A stretch of DNA of 37,459 nucleotides from a virus (lineage: Duplodnaviria > Heunggongvirae > Uroviricota > Caudoviricetes): the IMG/VR virus record IMGVR_UViG_3300022562_000399. One strand, 5' to 3'. A program made the position numbers and the translations under genes. A model generated the notes under the pieces. That model saw nothing but the letters and a program-made list of their open reading frames with translations, was not told where the DNA came from and did not search any database. How positions within the stretch are numbered: the stretch's first letter is position 1; each line of letters opens with the position of its first letter. Positions 1-18,068 of the stretch are shown here, one piece after another.

Positions 1-2888
1 CCGTACACGGTTCCAGGTGCCCACCAGTAAGCCGCCCCATCATGCTCCAGCCCAATGATAGGAATGGTCTTTTGACCCCCGGTTCGCTGAAGGGCCGTTT
101 CAATCAAATTTTCAACAGAGTCGCGCAAATCAGCAACGGAGTTCGCCGCCAAACAGAAACCGTCCGAACACCCTGGTACTGGGCTCATGCACCCGGCACT
201 TCCTGAGATCCACACCGGAATCGGCCCTGGTGCTGTATTCCATGACCCAACCGGTGCGCAGTCACCAGTCGAAGTCAGACAGTTGTTGTGGCACGTGCCA
301 TCTCCCCCTCCCCCAATATCGTCGCAGTAAGCGTAACGAAGCGCGTTGCCAGTTCCGCCGTTCGTGTTGTCGCATACACCCCCCAATTCACAATCCGTAT
401 TTGTCTGGCACGCTTTGTACTTGTCCCAAGTCGTGTCACACGCTGCGTTCGTCGTGCACGCATCACGGGAGCCCCACGGCTGATTGATGCACTGTCCTCC
501 AGAACACAACCCATCGGGGGCCGTCGCACAAAACATGCAATCGGAGTTGTCCGTGCACGCTACTCTGCTGGCACAGTCGCTGTTATCAGTGCAATCACTA
601 CACGAATTAAGCCACTCCTGGCTCATCGTGTCCCCGAACATCGCATCACCGTCTTTGCCATTGATGCACGTGAACGTGTGATCCGACAAACGCTCTCGAT
701 TCGTCGGACTGCACTGACACGGGCCGCCATGATCGGTGCCACCGTAGCAATACCCACTGGCGTAGTAGTCGCACGTACCATCATCACAATCGGCATCCGG
801 ACAATCGGCATTTGTAGAGCATGACGGTGTTCCGACGTGGTTAATGCACACCGACCCGGAACAGATCGGATCGGGACTACAGTTGATTCCCTTCTTCGTC
901 CCACTCGAACAGTAATAGCGCGGCGACAAACCATACAGGCCAAGATCGTTTTGTCCGATCACCACCATCACAAAATCTGGGATCGAGGACACGCCCGAAT
1001 CATTGCGAAGATACAGTTGCGACATGTGGTCCGAATCCAACAGATCGTTAGAGTTGGACGGGGCTCCGTTCAGAATGCCGTAGGTTGCATCGGTCCACCA
1101 CCGCGTCACATCACCCGACGTAGCGCCGCCAACCGTTGCAACCGAAATCTCTGGGATGTCCAACAGCGCAATCTGGATACCCTGATGCACTTCATCGTTG
1201 TCAGTAATGCTGTCCCCAACCAAACGGAAGTGCACAGGGCCATCCGTATTCTGGTCGGTTGCGACAGCTTCCTTGACCACCACTTCCAGCTTCAGCCCAA
1301 CCTCCATCAAGATGTCCGAGATTCTAGTGCGGTCCGCCGATCCACCAGCCCCCGAACCCGTGTTGTCTCCGAGAACGTCCACCGAAGCCGTGGCTTGCTC
1401 ACTCAACTCATCCAACCCAGTCCCGCTGGTCGTCTCCAGGGCTACCATCTGATAGCTTTCGTTAATATCATCCACCACGTCGAACTCTGGTCCAGTAGCC
1501 TCCCACCCAGCACAGTCGGTGTTGTTCGAGCACAGATGAATTTGCAGCTTGTTGTGTGGGCTCGACCCACCTGTGTTCTGATCACGCGCCACAACCGTCC
1601 CAGAGATGGCTGTGACAATCCCGGCTTCATTGGCGGACCAACCAGTTGCTGGGCTCGGATAGGAAATCGACGCGGTGTCCACCCACACTTCGGGGCTAGT
1701 GTTCTGCCCCTGCGTCAGCACATAGCTCGTATCACCGTCGTGTGACGACGTACCGCTGGTCTGATCATCCGTACACGTCGGCGAATCAGTACAGCTTCCG
1801 TTGTACGGTGACGAAGGCGAGCCAGCAAGATCCGCTTCTGCCACAGTCCCGTTCGGAACGCTTTCAAAAATGCCGAAGGATACAATCGCCGCGTCAGCGT
1901 TCGTCCCGGTAGCCACCGCCAAGTCATCAAGACGAAGATTCAACGCCGGACCAAATTCGACACTCGCTACGTTGGCAATCTCAGTGGACGGACGAACTTT
2001 GAACTGCTTCCCAGCGCCACTCGATTGCAAGGAGCACGTCACTGTTCCGTCACCGTTGTCCTTCTGCGACATGGTGGCCTCGAACCACGCTGGCATATTC
2101 AACGTGACAGACACACCGTACGGAGATGGTTTGCACCACTGCTCTCCATTCGTCTGAGCGTGGCACTCGTTCGTTTCTACGACGGTATCTCCATCGTCAG
2201 TGCAAGCCCCCCACCCAGTAGGAACGCCTGCATACTTGTAGTTCACGCATTCCGATCCCGCTTGGGTACAGTCCGCAGCAACTTCGCACGGAGTGCACGG
2301 GTCGTCATTCGTGCCACCTGTGCAAACGTACTTGCTCGACCCGAAGAACGTATTCAGCTTCACCTTCCCGTTACCAAGCCATACGATGTCCGTGTAGCAC
2401 TGGTCGTTACTGCTGCCGTCCTTGAACGTCATCAAGCGATAGCTACCATCCGCCGACATGAGGTCGGGGCTGAACAACACATGTGCCGAAATTTCCCCAG
2501 TTGCGGAGAAGTAAGACGACCCAACAACTACCTTCTCGTCTGACTCGTCGAACCACAAGTGCCAATCGTTGTCGGCTGTTCCTGGCGTGATGCAGATGGA
2601 CGAATTGTTGCTCCCAGTTCTACAGTCGGCGTTCGACGAACAAAACCGCCCCTGATTCGCACCTGAGTCATACTGACACCAAGCTGTTCGTGCAGAGGCA
2701 GACGACAGCGTCGGATCTCCAGTCACCGAATCGAACACATACGTCCGATTCGTACTCTTGAACGGCACAGCGCAAGTGGTGGAGCCTGTATAGCACCCCG
2801 TCTCGAAGCCGGTCATGAAAACGACTTCTGCCGCCAACGCATTCGTAGCAAAGAAAACGCTTGCTACAAGACCAAGTAGTTTAGTCAT
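1..2888 (-). CDS. Partial (>962 aa, runs off the left edge) signal-peptide-bearing Cys-rich protein with an SGNH/GDSL hydrolase domain; not in the ORF track
   Basis: Hand translation from the ATG at 2888 (TGATG overlap with the upstream stop) is open to position 1. It starts MTKLLGLVASVFFATNALA|AEVVFMTGFETG. SGNH block I FRLVGDSIT at 1203-1217, block II-like VGGATSGDV, block III PDFVMVVIGQND at 945-956. Block V (DxxH) would lie beyond the window. Confidence 0.85.
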   Translation of the reverse strand, partial: MTKLLGLVASVFFATNALAAEVVFMTGFETGCYTGSTTCAVPFKSTNRTYVFDSVTGDPTLSSASARTAWCQYDSGANQGRFCSSNADCRTGSNNSSICITPGTADNDWHLWFDESDEKVVVGSSYFSATGEISAHVLFSPDLMSADGSYRLMTFKDGSSNDQCYTDIVWLGNGKVKLNTFFGSSKYVCTGGTNDDPCTPCEVAADCTQAGSECVNYKYAGVPTGWGACTDDGDTVVETNECHAQTNGEQWCKPSPYGVSVTLNMPAWFEATMSQKDNGDGTVTCSLQSSGAGKQFKVRPSTEIANVASVEFGPALNLRLDDLAVATGTNADAAIVSFGIFESVPNGTVAEADLAGSPSSPYNGSCTDSPTCTDDQTSGTSSHDGDTSYVLTQGQNTSPEVWVDTASISYPSPATGWSANEAGIVTAISGTVVARDQNTGGSSPHNKLQIHLCSNNTDCAGWEATGPEFDVVDDINESYQMVALETTSGTGLDELSEQATASVDVLGDNTGSGAGGSADRTRISDILMEVGLKLEVVVKEAVATDQNTDGPVHFRLVGDSITDNDEVHQGIQIALLDIPEISVATVGGATSGDVTRWWTDATYGILNGAPSNSNDLLDSDHMSQLYLRNDSGVSSIPDFVMVVIGQNDLGLYGLSPRYYCSSGTKKGINCSPDPICSGSVCINHVGTPSCSTNADCPDADCDDGTCDYYASGYCYGGTDHGGPCQCSPTNRERLSDHTFTCINGKDGDAMFGDTMSQEWLNSCSDCTDNSDCASRVACTDNSDCMFCATAPDGLCSGGQCINQPWGSRDACTTNAACDTTWDKYKACQTNTDCELGGVCDNTNGGTGNALRYAYCDDIGGGGDGTCHNNCLTSTGDCAPVGSWNTAPGPIPVWISGSAGCMSPVPGCSDGFCLAANSVADLRDSVENLIETALQRTGGQKTIPIIGLEHDGAAYWWAPGTVY

Positions 2889-17900: not shown

Positions 17901-18068
17901 ACCACTGAAGTCGTGCGTGCCGGTGTAAGTATCTCCCCAGGAGCACCCCAGATTGGGCGCCTGGAAACAACGCGGACCAAGAGTCGAGGGGTCAGAGGGT
18001 TGAGCCCCCGCAGACAAAGGAGCCAGAGCCAGTCCCAGGGCCAGCAGTATCGTGGAAAACTTCTTCAT
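14979..18068 (-). CDS. 1029-aa signal-peptide, Cys-paired, repeat-containing tail-fibre-like protein
   Basis: The likely start is the ATG at 18068 (SD GGAG at 18074-18077), giving MKKFSTILLALGLALAPLSAGA|Q; the ORF track start at 18101 adds 11 aa. Fibre-like motifs GEANTASNVGGG..QKTGVDLEF and GKMSWGDGTNAVDSTLARTAADHL. ABAB internal repeats. 32 Cys in near-neighbour pairs. Confidence 0.75.
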   Translation of the reverse strand: MKKFSTILLALGLALAPLSAGAQPSDPSTLGPRCFQAPNLGCSWGDTYTGTHDFSGATVVLPDGSISLSYLNGACPDGQFITQASGVAICAAGTAHGNGANCSPGFYPLGVDAGGAVEDCTAVPADTDTTCLDGTVNCLFAGSATEGGSATTALALAADPTACDPGEFVTDVAADGTLTCAAASASDTTCLDAGVVCAFAGSATEGGPATTALALDTNPQDCGANTFATTIGANGDLTCAALTDADIPDTITASNYLPLAGGTVTGDVSIDDNTGDSPKVCFKDATNRNTCLYSEDATGRSYIEREVSPGQFYFLNLAVLSSLGFTGDLTGNVIGNADTATALAVDPTACDPGDFVTDIAADGTLTCATPPSGGSNIVLDLADDASNESTALGEIATTGDTNGIFTEPSPDKLLIAVGSNWPTADTADALSVNPQDCGANTFATTIAANGDLTCAALTDADVPNALTLAAATIGTSDITLKLGTTPTVEGRIEWDGDTDTIRVGGGGGTSIFFEGPHYTTSNFSTDFGTKTCGDLSGCVVGAITQVDDITDIVSGVKTGIDLKLVTGTAGTGGHCAQWDANGDLVSAGAPCGTGSGGEANTASNVGGGLANFNQKTGVDLEFNTFAAADFDLASNLLTIDDTKWATDAQVTSAIAAVDHSIYPLLDGTRPFTGDQRFNPGDNAVALHVTNTAGDSINLFQGTTAASLTATETAGTDNVLSFKVTGDTPSRFVVDANGKMSWGDGTNAVDSTLARTAADHLDTPDILTFGTNSGVATGGASGATFFVDASSVATGLTNIQLREQGTTRAIWQAYGQSHATTPNSVVFGTPAGSTATLKLATGSSVPISMANGIATINSSSLVSGANGVVFSLDGVQGTDTSSIFHLKQGGANGGFMQYRHTANSVDPNTVRYGCNTANCKTQLRVGANLLAMECDGTRKCAFSGDTLVVDPVAGTVSVNGDDVCTASGANCPLAGLGDMLKIVYDTDADSVVDDSELTDAVKVGSLDCSTKAAGFVRVVSGVPTICVPGS

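What the first reader, a model, noticed from the sequence alone, without database searches (positions are those of the whole stretch)
1..18068. Four coupled, signal-peptide-bearing, disulfide-rich giant proteins at the tail-fibre locus: candidate exported phage appendage system
Seen: right after the gpJ-like tail tip are four genes (1029, 3118, 917, >962 aa) chained by overlaps (19 nt, TAATG, TGATG). Each begins with a basic-hydrophobic-AxA leader: AGA|Q23, ALA|A25, AQA|A22, ALA|A20. Hand counts give 32, about 100 and 24 Cys for the three complete genes, and 32 in one 253-aa insert of the fourth. By contrast the TMP has none, the MCP 2 and J about 13 in 2100 aa. They also carry phage-fibre motifs (GEANTASNVG, SAESIKAYVD, WGDG..D..L.R). 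Established: Caudoviricetes fibres and spikes fold in the reducing cytoplasm and usually attach through an N-terminal anchor; signal-peptide and disulfide receptor proteins are typical of filamentous phage pIII. Inference: these proteins are exported, oxidatively folded in the periplasm, and then either dock onto virions at or after lysis, or act as secreted or lysogen-surface glycan-modifying proteins expressed from the late operon.
Basis: partly seen in the sequence, partly recalled or inferred. Interest (0 to 1): 0.92.

Follow-up and report, generated by a model that had tools for sequence, protein, structure and literature searches.

The report
Phage tail fibres carrying export signals
An uncultured marine-sediment phage encodes, where side tail fibres normally sit, five large cysteine-paired fibre and sugar-cutting proteins that each start with a secretion signal, so they probably fold outside the cytoplasm in which the rest of the virus is built, a route not described for tailed phages.

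Summary
Between the J-like tail tip gene and the lysis cassette lie four overlapping minus-strand genes. A fifth lies just beyond the window. Each begins with a textbook Sec-type leader, and none of the 15 other structural genes does. The mature proteins carry 32, 98, 24, 66 and 16 cysteines: all even numbers, with few CxxC motifs.

The pattern is general. gA's conserved 2-Cys module occurs in 90 protein clusters, of which 79 have leaders and 65 of those 79 have even Cys. It also occurs in 78 IMG/VR viral contigs, where 81% of module proteins have leaders against 12% of other large ORFs. A relative (L072, J homologue E=1e-121) and an unrelated phage (L004) show the same layout from tip gene to leader proteins to endolysin. 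A cultured relative, RcZahn, has leaderless fibres with almost no cysteine. The module models as a homotrimer. It also occurs in surface giants of Saccharibacteria and Bdellovibrionales, like Bdellovibrio MAT fibres.

Export and periplasmic disulfide folding are well supported in silico (about 0.75). Their fate is open: docking onto virions at lysis (about 0.35 overall) or free exo-enzymes. I found no description in print. This scan has flagged the same pattern on other phage DNA before.

The parts
14979..18068 (-). gA, 1029 aa: leader (codons 1-22), Cys-rich N region, repeated 2-Cys stalk modules (about res 100-510), orphan C-terminal part; 32 Cys in the mature form
18003..18068 (-). gA Sec-type leader, predicted cut AGA|Q
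   Evidence: GGAG 9 nt upstream
16641..16973 (-). Conserved module of gA (res 366-476), 60-75% identical across many proteins; modelled as an intertwined homotrimer
   Evidence: complex prediction (score 0.88, best control 0.01)
5641..14997 (-). gB, 3118 aa: leader, beta-helix that starts directly after the leader, Thr-rich linker, further beta-helix and fibre-neck modules, C-terminal tip; 98 Cys
14926..14997 (-). gB leader, predicted cut ALA|A
13318..14997 (-). gB N-terminal module (res 1-560), 37% identical over 92% of its length to P0097, a 731-aa leader-bearing beta-helix protein
7183..7515 (-). gB beta-helix stretch (res 2495-2605) resembling the A-module of secreted mannuronan C5-epimerases AlgE4 and AlgE6
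   Evidence: E=7e-9
5644..6225 (-). gB C-terminal tip (res 2925-3118), shared with the C-termini of two other leader-bearing fibre proteins; beta-sandwich resembling carbohydrate-binding modules (weak)
2888..5641 (-). gC, 917 aa: leader, pectate-lyase-like beta-helix, Cys-rich LamG-like domain, C-terminal domain; 24 Cys
4880..5449 (-). gC beta-helix (res 65-254), Pfam PF12708
   Evidence: E=2e-9, 38 bits against a cut-off of 27
3551..4339 (-). gC LamG-like Cys-rich domain (res 435-697); 395 relatives; of the 149 best, 82 get a leader call and many are about 300 aa with 12-18 Cys
   Evidence: pLDDT about 90
3..2891 (-). gD, first 963 of 1303 aa: leader, Cys-rich N region, SGNH-type esterase (GDS at 1209-1217, GQND at 945-956) split by a 253-aa insert with 32 Cys (153-911); 66 Cys in the full mature protein
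18150..24464 (-). J-like tail tip protein, 2104 aa, no leader, 13 Cys; marks the end of the cytoplasmic tail module

Best explanation
The block is a late-operon set of five extracytoplasmic fibre and enzyme proteins.

Step 1 (inferred from sequence; my odds about 0.75). Each protein is made with a cleavable Sec/signal-peptidase-I leader. It is moved into the periplasm of a diderm host and locked there by disulfide bonds, with all cysteines paired. The same late-infection export route serves the spanin and lipoprotein genes encoded just downstream.

Step 2 (partly modelled). The proteins fold into elongated trimers. These carry stalk modules, polysaccharide-cutting beta-helices, an SGNH esterase, LamG-type lectin domains and a carbohydrate-binding-like tip.

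Step 3 (inferred; about 0.45 given step 1). They meet the capsid-tail particles, which are built in the cytoplasm, only when holin, endolysin and spanin action merges the two compartments. They then dock at the tail tip as side fibres or spikes. Virion assembly would thus be split between two compartments.
For: Leaders: 5 of 5 block genes carry one, against 0 of 15 other structural genes. Scores are 3.5-4.1, where 1 of 2010 control fragments reaches 3.

Cysteines: the mature proteins carry 32, 98, 24, 66 and 16 Cys, all even. The one Cys in the 209-aa protein's leader is what makes its total odd. CxxC motifs are few and His is low, so zinc sites are unlikely.

Family level: 79 of 90 gA homologues have leaders, and 65 of those 79 have even Cys (p=2.6e-9). 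Cys is the most conserved residue type. In 78 IMG/VR viral contigs, 60 of 74 module ORFs have leaders against 12% of other large ORFs, and 53 of those 60 have even Cys.

Same layout elsewhere: tail tip gene, then leader-bearing Cys-rich ORFs, then endolysin, in relative L072 (J E=1e-121) and in unrelated phage L004. RcZahn, a cultured relative by its capsid protein, has leaderless fibres with 0-2 Cys in the same slot.

Fibre nature: the gA module models as a homotrimer. The score is 0.88 and the best control 0.01, a mark reached by 20 of 30 solved one-chain pairs and 1 of 23 single chains. Partner pLDDT is at least 92 and the runs agree on at least 96% of contacts. My own alignment and three copies were used, so the calibration holds only roughly. 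Language-model look-alikes of gA are all viral tail-fibre clusters, but weak at 0.84-0.88. gB ends in a tip domain shared with other leader-bearing fibres.

Feasibility: Bdellovibrio MAT fibres are phage-fibre-like trimers that carry signal peptides, and one was expressed behind a PelB leader (PMC10769870). Spanins are exported late proteins that are disulfide-bonded (Berry et al. 2013, as cited in PMC13412088).

Operon context: the genes overlap, no promoter or terminator signal exceeds chance, and a lysis cassette follows directly. The five proteins total 6,576 aa, about 19.7 kb of a 103-kb genome.
Against: No trained signal-peptide predictor and no experiment were available.

No virion-attachment domain was recognised. 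In gB and gC the beta-helix begins directly after the leader, as in free secreted enzymes such as P0097.

The mature N-termini are not conserved between gA and the fibre of relative L072, although the two J proteins are related.

The J-like tip protein could serve as the receptor-binding protein by itself, so the particle may not need these proteins.

The modules are shared with cellular surface proteins.

Docking after lysis has to compete with dilution.
Confidence: 0.35

Rival explanations
1. The proteins are exported and disulfide-bonded but never join the virion. They are soluble or envelope-associated exo-enzymes and adhesins that act from the periplasm and after lysis. They would strip or deacetylate capsule, EPS or receptor glycans on the infected cell, on debris and on neighbouring cells. 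This would ease release and stop progeny from being trapped.
For: The evidence for export is the same as for the best explanation. In addition:
- the beta-helix starts right after the leader in gB and gC, as in the stand-alone protein P0097;
- the enzyme and lectin domains are of kinds typical of secreted glycan-active proteins;
- the domain families are common in cellular secreted proteins;
- no virion anchor was found and the N-termini are not conserved with L072;
- J alone could bind the receptor.
Against: Long trimeric stalk modules and a distal tip make little sense on free enzymes. About a fifth of a size-limited genome is invested in these genes. Overlapping starts and stops suggest fixed stoichiometry, as in a complex. 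The slot between tip gene and lysis genes usually holds virion fibres. In other phages the leader-bearing fibres sit inside the neck and tail gene run.
Confidence: 0.3
2. The proteins are ordinary cytoplasmic tail fibres. The hydrophobic N-termini are not used for export: they are uncleaved, or serve as an assembly or anchoring helix. The cysteines oxidise only after release, or stay reduced.
For: This is the textbook route for all studied Caudoviricetes fibres. The genes sit in the tail-fibre slot. No experiment shows export. Sediment habitats can be reducing.
Against: The leaders have the complete n-h-c architecture with small residues at -3 and -1, in five consecutive genes and across the family. 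A Cys count that becomes even only after the leader is removed fits cleavage: the 209-aa ORF here, P0034 and the L004 167-aa ORF. Cellular relatives are surface proteins. Sec works late in infection, because spanins and lipoproteins from the same operon need it.
Confidence: 0.15
3. The block is a moron-type or lysogenic-conversion cargo, like lambda lom and bor. It would be expressed from a prophage to change the host surface and would be unrelated to virion function.
For: Signal-peptide-bearing morons do sit next to tail fibre genes in lambdoid phages (own knowledge). GC3 of the block (0.62-0.71) is lower than that of the core structural genes (0.77-0.80), which suggests separate ancestry.
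Against: The block has no promoter or terminator signal of its own above chance. Its genes overlap one another. The proteins are giant and fibre-like rather than small. The layout recurs in unrelated phages. No integrase is seen in the window.
Confidence: 0.06

Closest known systems
Bdellovibrio bacteriovorus MAT (mosaic adhesive trimer) fibres (Caulton et al. 2024, PMC10769870)
   Same: Signal peptide followed by a long trimeric, phage-tail-fibre-like shaft with swappable C-terminal tips, some with disulfides, acting outside the cytoplasm. The gA module also occurs in Bdellovibrionales genomes.
   Different: MAT proteins are cellular genes of a predator and share a conserved N-terminal domain of about 130 aa. 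Here the genes sit in a phage late operon between the tail tip gene and the lysis genes. There is no sequence match to the solved MAT fragments. The cysteine load is far higher and enzymatic beta-helices and an esterase are fused in.
Classical siphophage side tail fibres and branched tailspike sets (lambda Stf, T5 pb1, CBA120 TSP1-4; own knowledge)
   Same: Position after the tip gene. Consecutive coupled genes. Trimeric fibre and beta-helix depolymerase architecture. Esterase and lectin add-ons.
   Different: Those fibres have no signal peptide, have few cysteines, fold in the cytoplasm and carry recognisable N-terminal adaptor domains. The cultured relative RcZahn follows this classical pattern.
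Filamentous phage pIII (Ff gene III protein; own knowledge)
   Same: A receptor-binding virion protein made with a Sec leader and oxidised by the periplasmic Dsb system.
   Different: pIII stays membrane-anchored by a C-terminal helix and is added during extrusion without lysis. Here the phage is tailed and lytic, with an HK97-type head, a tape measure and a lysis cassette, and the proteins have no C-terminal membrane helix.
Phage spanins and other exported late lysis proteins (Berry, Rajaure and Young 2013, as cited in PMC13412088)
   Same: Late-operon proteins of tailed phages that are exported by Sec and disulfide-bonded in the periplasm. This shows the route is open late in infection.
   Different: These are small lysis factors, not fibre-like or enzymatic appendages.
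Signal-peptide genes of Porphyromonas phages (Matrishin et al. 2023, PMC10367356)
   Same: Phage genes with Sec signal peptides are noted and read as adapted to the host's secretion system.
   Different: These are five genes of unknown function, read as host modifiers. No tail fibres or disulfide pairing are named.

Membership tests
Sec / signal peptidase I secretory proteins | N-terminal positive n-region, an uncharged hydrophobic h-region of 8-15 residues, and small residues at -3 and -1 | tested here: met
   All five ORFs score 3.5-4.1 on a rule-based scan. None of the 15 other structural genes is called, and 1 of 2010 internal control fragments reaches 3. No trained predictor was available.
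Sec / signal peptidase I secretory proteins | The leader lies at the true translation start | tested here: met
   Each start is the first start codon of its ORF, with GGAG upstream or a stop/start overlap. No SD-backed internal start lies within the leaders. P0097 aligns from just after its own leader.
Sec / signal peptidase I secretory proteins | Export and cleavage shown experimentally | not testable with these tools
   Needs PhoA/Bla fusions or N-terminomics.
Disulfide-bonded extracytoplasmic proteins | Cysteines paired (even number), conserved, and not arranged as metal sites | tested here: met
   The mature proteins have 32, 98, 24, 66 and 16 Cys. There are 0-4 CxxC motifs per protein and His is 0.8-1.6%. 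Cys is the most conserved residue type (0.78). In the family, 65 of 79 and 53 of 60 have even counts. Actual bonds were not observed.
Classical Caudoviricetes tail fibre / tailspike | Encoded in the tail module after the tip/host-specificity gene | tested here: met
   J (phrog_469/31) lies at 18150-24464, the block follows it, and the lysis cassette follows the block.
Classical Caudoviricetes tail fibre / tailspike | Trimeric fibre or beta-helix fold | tested here: met
   Trimer model of the gA module: 0.88 against a best control of 0.01. PF12708 beta-helix in gC. Tailspike PHROG match and AlgE-like helix in gB.
Classical Caudoviricetes tail fibre / tailspike | N-terminal virion-attachment domain | tested here: inconclusive
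   No Pfam, PHROG or PDB match at the N-termini. No N-terminal conservation with the fibre of relative L072. Lineage-specific anchors would escape these searches.
Classical Caudoviricetes tail fibre / tailspike | Cytoplasmic folding: no signal peptide, few cysteines | tested here: not met
   Leaders and 2.6-8.1% Cys. Contrast RcZahn.
Bdellovibrio MAT fibres | Signal peptide plus a trimeric phage-fibre-like shaft with mosaic tips | tested here: met
Bdellovibrio MAT fibres | Conserved beta-rich domain of about 130 aa directly after the signal peptide | not tested
The solved fragments gave no match.
Filamentous-phage pIII-type exported receptor-binding protein | C-terminal membrane anchor and incorporation during extrusion without lysis | tested here: not met
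   No C-terminal hydrophobic helix is visible in the translations. The phage is tailed and has a lysis cassette.
Moron / lysogenic-conversion surface genes (lom, bor type) | A small gene with its own promoter and terminator inside a late operon | tested here: not met
   Promoter-like and terminator-like sites are at or below the shuffle expectation. The genes are 209-3118 aa and overlap.

The most novel reading that the evidence does not exclude
Two-compartment assembly of a tailed phage. Head and tail are built in the cytoplasm. The side fibres and depolymerase spikes are exported by Sec, oxidised by the host Dsb system in the periplasm, and dock on the tail tip only in the seconds after the holin opens the inner membrane. 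This route would be shared by many uncultured phage lineages.
Probability: 0.3. Interest if true: 0.9.

Novelty: new variant of a known kind. Interest (0 to 1): 0.72.

Why it matters
Textbook assembly of tailed phages happens entirely in the reducing cytoplasm. If host-recognition proteins of many uncultured phages are instead exported and disulfide-locked, four things follow.

1. Gene callers and fibre or receptor-binding-protein predictors that trim or ignore leaders will mis-annotate them. JGI's calls did so here for two of the genes.
2. Recombinant expression of such fibres and depolymerases will need periplasmic or oxidising systems.
3. Host Sec and Dsb functions become phage dependency factors.
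4. The last assembly step would be coupled to lysis.

The shared trimeric 2-Cys module also links phage fibres to the surface giants of episymbiotic (Saccharibacteria/Patescibacteria) and predatory (Bdellovibrionales) bacteria. That points to a common pool of extracellular adhesin parts.

Tried and rejected
- Single-protein scans of IMG/VR with gC, gA and J found nothing. Only the alignment of the conserved module worked. The first, broader alignment was too loose to search with.
- tblastn of gA, gB, the gC LamG domain and the L072 fibre against 50,697 isolate-phage records gave no useful match. Megablast of the structural module gave none.
- Pfam and NCBIfam gave nothing for gA and gD, and only weak hints for gB.
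- No whole genome is held for this window. No tRNA lies in the window.
- The small Cys-rich ORFs that end the blocks in this phage, L004 and L003 are not homologous. I therefore dropped the idea of a conserved periplasmic fibre chaperone.
- The similarity suggested between the C-termini of J, Dit and gB is not significant by BLAST.
- I looked for a conserved N-terminal anchor between gA and the L072 fibre and did not find one.
- A Cys-content difference between leader-bearing and leaderless module proteins in IMG/VR was not significant. Only single examples (P0074, P0085, L078) are both leaderless and Cys-free.
- The full gC model has low confidence outside the LamG domain and was not used for fold search. 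The gB tip model is of moderate quality and its CBM matches are weak.
- Sequencing runs: no RNA holder is listed. The only holder is the probable source sample.
- Literature searches for signal peptides or DsbA together with tailed-phage fibres found no description.

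
Full report
WHAT IS THERE

The window is the structural arm of a siphophage contig of about 103 kb from a marine sediment metagenome. 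All genes run on the minus strand. PHROG matches identify a prohead protease, an HK97-type capsid protein, a tail terminator, a tube-type protein (phrog_290), a tape measure, Dit-like and minor tail proteins, and a 2104-aa J-like tip protein at 18150-24464. The capsid protein is 43-49% identical to those of cultured 80-100-kb siphophages such as Rhodobacter phage RcZahn, Stenotrophomonas phage DLP_5 and Vibrio phages.

Four genes follow J: gA 14979-18068 (1029 aa), gB 5641-14997 (3118 aa), gC 2888-5641 (917 aa) and gD from 2891 to the window edge. They overlap by 19, 1 and 4 nt, and GGAG lies upstream of each start. A second copy of the region (L001) adds three things. gD is 1303 aa in full. 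A fifth ORF of 209 aa with a leader and 8.1% Cys follows it. Next comes a lysis cassette: an SLT transglycosylase (Pfam E=1e-21), an N-terminally anchored coiled-coil protein, a protein with two membrane helices, and a lipobox lipoprotein. The block therefore lies inside the phage, and the host is most likely diderm.

CHECK OF THE OBSERVATION

A rule-based scan looks for a positive n-region, an uncharged hydrophobic core and small residues at -3 and -1. It calls all five ORFs with scores of 3.5-4.1 and none of the 15 other structural genes. Only 1 of 2010 internal control fragments reaches a score of 3.

Cys content is 2.6-8.1% in the block, against 0-0.8% for most structural proteins: TMP has 0, MCP 2 and J 13. 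After removal of the leaders the counts are 32, 98, 24, 66 and 16, all even. CxxC motifs are few and His is low, so this looks like disulfide pairing and not metal binding.

JGI's gene calls began gB 91 codons and gD 265 codons downstream and so missed the leaders. For gB the long start is supported by homologue P0097, which aligns from directly after its own leader. For both genes it is also supported by in-frame GC3 in the N-terminal extensions and by the absence of SD-backed internal starts in the first 45 codons.

WHAT THE PROTEINS ARE

gA has no Pfam match. It contains a repeated module with two cysteines about 17 residues apart, and 90 protein clusters share this module. One copy (res 366-476) is 60-75% identical across very different proteins. 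It models as an intertwined homotrimer. The score is 0.88 and the best control 0.01, a mark reached by 20 of 30 solved one-chain pairs and by 1 of 23 single chains. Partner pLDDT is at least 92 and the runs agree on at least 96% of contacts. My own alignment and three copies were used, so the calibration holds only roughly. Language-model look-alikes of gA are all viral tail-fibre clusters, though the scores of 0.84-0.88 are weak.

gB starts with a beta-helix immediately after its leader. This part is 37% identical to a stand-alone 731-aa leader-bearing protein. gB also carries fibre-neck motifs shared with the gA family and a beta-helix stretch like the A-module of the secreted epimerases AlgE4 and AlgE6 (E=7e-9). 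It ends in a tip domain shared with the C-termini of two other leader-bearing fibres. The model of that tip is of moderate quality and weakly resembles carbohydrate-binding modules.

gC combines a PF12708 beta-helix with a Cys-rich LamG-like domain. That domain has 395 relatives. Of the 149 best, 82 get a leader call and mean Cys is about 4%. Many are about 300 aa with 12-18 Cys.

gD is an SGNH-type esterase interrupted by an insert with 32 Cys.

IS THE PATTERN GENERAL?

Yes. Of the 90 gA homologues, 79 get a leader call and several more have one by eye. Of those 79, 65 have an even mature Cys count (p=2.6e-9), and Cys is the most conserved residue type.

A scan of IMG/VR with the module found 78 viral contigs. 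In them, 60 of 74 N-terminally complete module ORFs have leaders, against 12% of other large same-strand ORFs. Of those 60, 53 have even Cys. In 26 contigs two or more leader ORFs lie in a row.

Three contexts are telling:
- L072 is a relative of this phage: J homologue E=1e-121, a 41%-identical minor tail protein and a 42%-identical endolysin. It has the same order. J is followed by a 137-aa ORF, then a leader-bearing 1332-aa protein with 28 Cys, a further Cys-rich ORF with a leader-like stretch seen by eye, a leader-bearing 345-aa protein with 22 Cys, and then the endolysin.
- L004 is an unrelated phage. Three leader-bearing Cys-rich ORFs (30, 18 and 12 mature Cys) lie between its tail genes and an endolysin.
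- In L005, L003 and L012 the leader-bearing fibres sit just upstream of the tail tube gene, and in L008 one sits next to a head-closure gene.

RcZahn, the cultured relative, has leaderless proteins with 0-2 Cys in the fibre slot. None of the modules was found in 50,697 isolate-phage records.

CELLULAR RELATIVES

In one genome per species, the module occurs in 58 loci. Most are in Saccharibacteria and other Patescibacteria, often inside proteins of 2,400-4,800 aa. Others are in Bdellovibrionales, Acidobacteriota, Elusimicrobia and Thermodesulfobacteriota. The homologue covering the largest share of gA among the first ten hits (P0009, 31%) lies in an ordinary chromosomal neighbourhood.

The closest described analogues are the MAT fibres of Bdellovibrio. 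These are signal-peptide-bearing trimers resembling phage tail fibres, with swappable tips and some disulfides (PMC10769870). The module therefore belongs to an extracellular adhesin toolkit, and trimeric fibres of this kind can fold after Sec export.

HOW IT MOST LIKELY WORKS

Shown by sequence:
- leaders on every gene of the block;
- cysteine pairing;
- overlapping, coupled genes;
- no promoter or terminator signal above chance inside the block;
- a lysis cassette directly downstream.

Inferred: the five proteins are exported by Sec late in infection, as the neighbouring spanin-type and lipoprotein genes must be. They are oxidised in the periplasm and form long trimeric fibres that carry glycan-cutting, deacetylating and glycan-binding parts. 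I put this at about 0.75.

Their destination is not settled. I slightly favour docking onto the tail tip once lysis merges periplasm and cytoplasm. Four things point that way:
- the stalk-plus-tip architecture suits an anchored appendage;
- the genes occupy the fibre slot, or in other phages the neck slot;
- they take about a fifth of the genome;
- their coupling suggests a complex.

The main rival is that they stay free or envelope-bound and act as exo-enzymes. Supporting it, gB and gC have no N-terminal adaptor, no anchor domain was recognised, the N-termini are not conserved with L072, and J alone may suffice for adsorption.

Cytoplasmic folding with an unused leader is the textbook default, but it fits the data poorly. 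A moron reading fits worst.

COMPARISON AND NOVELTY

The block works like a branched tailspike and fibre set, but it fails the classical family on one defining point, cytoplasmic maturation. It resembles MAT fibres in design but is phage-encoded. It resembles filamentous-phage pIII in its route, but not in membrane anchoring or extrusion.

Six literature searches found no description of Sec leaders on fibres of tailed phages. The nearest papers are Matrishin et al. 2023, on signal-peptide genes of unknown function in Porphyromonas phages, and work on disulfide-bonded spanins (cited).

This scan has already noted the same pattern on many other phage genomes. Those notes gave me the MAT comparison and the Matrishin reference, both of which I checked. 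I do not count them as evidence.

VERDICT

The docking half remains open.

Noticed in passing
L001:16717-17346 (just beyond window position 1): A fifth leader-bearing ORF of 209 aa with 17 Cys (16 after the leader) and three tandem Cys repeats ends the block. Similarly placed small Cys-rich ORFs in L004 and L003 are not homologous to it.
   Followed up: yes
L001:17390-19509: Lysis cassette directly after the block: SLT transglycosylase, an N-terminally anchored coiled-coil protein (i-spanin-like), a protein with two membrane helices (holin-like) and a 130-aa lipobox lipoprotein with a Pro-rich start.
   Followed up: partly
window 3-18068 versus 18150-34775: GC3 of the four giant genes is 0.62-0.71, against 0.77-0.80 for J, TMP and MCP. 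This suggests the block has a different ancestry from the core structural genes.
   Followed up: partly
L001 gene calls (window 14725-14997 and 2097-2891): The public gene calls start gB 91 codons and gD 265 codons too late and so cut off the leaders. Pipelines may systematically hide such signals.
   Followed up: yes
L012:7929-12006: A prophage-like stretch in a complete Thermodesulfobacteriota MAG has two paralogous fibre proteins with nearly identical leaders, plus a leader-bearing LamG protein, directly upstream of a phrog_290 tube gene.
   Followed up: partly
L013:15376-16878: A 31.7-kb contig binned as Candidatus Parcubacteria carries a tape-measure relative of this phage (E=1e-32) and a module protein. 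It is probably a phage contig that was mis-binned, or a phage of that host.
   Followed up: no
window 3551-3700 (gC res about 650-697): The LamG-like family ends in a conserved Cys motif (CRICSCG ... C.C ... CG.CTLP) that is kept across hundreds of small secreted proteins.
   Followed up: no
window 24461-24856: The 131-aa ORF just upstream of J gives weak NlpC/P60 and CHAP matches and has 4 Cys. It may be a tail-associated peptidase of the lambda gpK type.
   Followed up: no
window 18153-18570 and 25430-25795: The shared C-terminal domain proposed for J and Dit is not significant by BLAST (E=0.19-0.26). It would need profile or fold comparison.
   Followed up: partly
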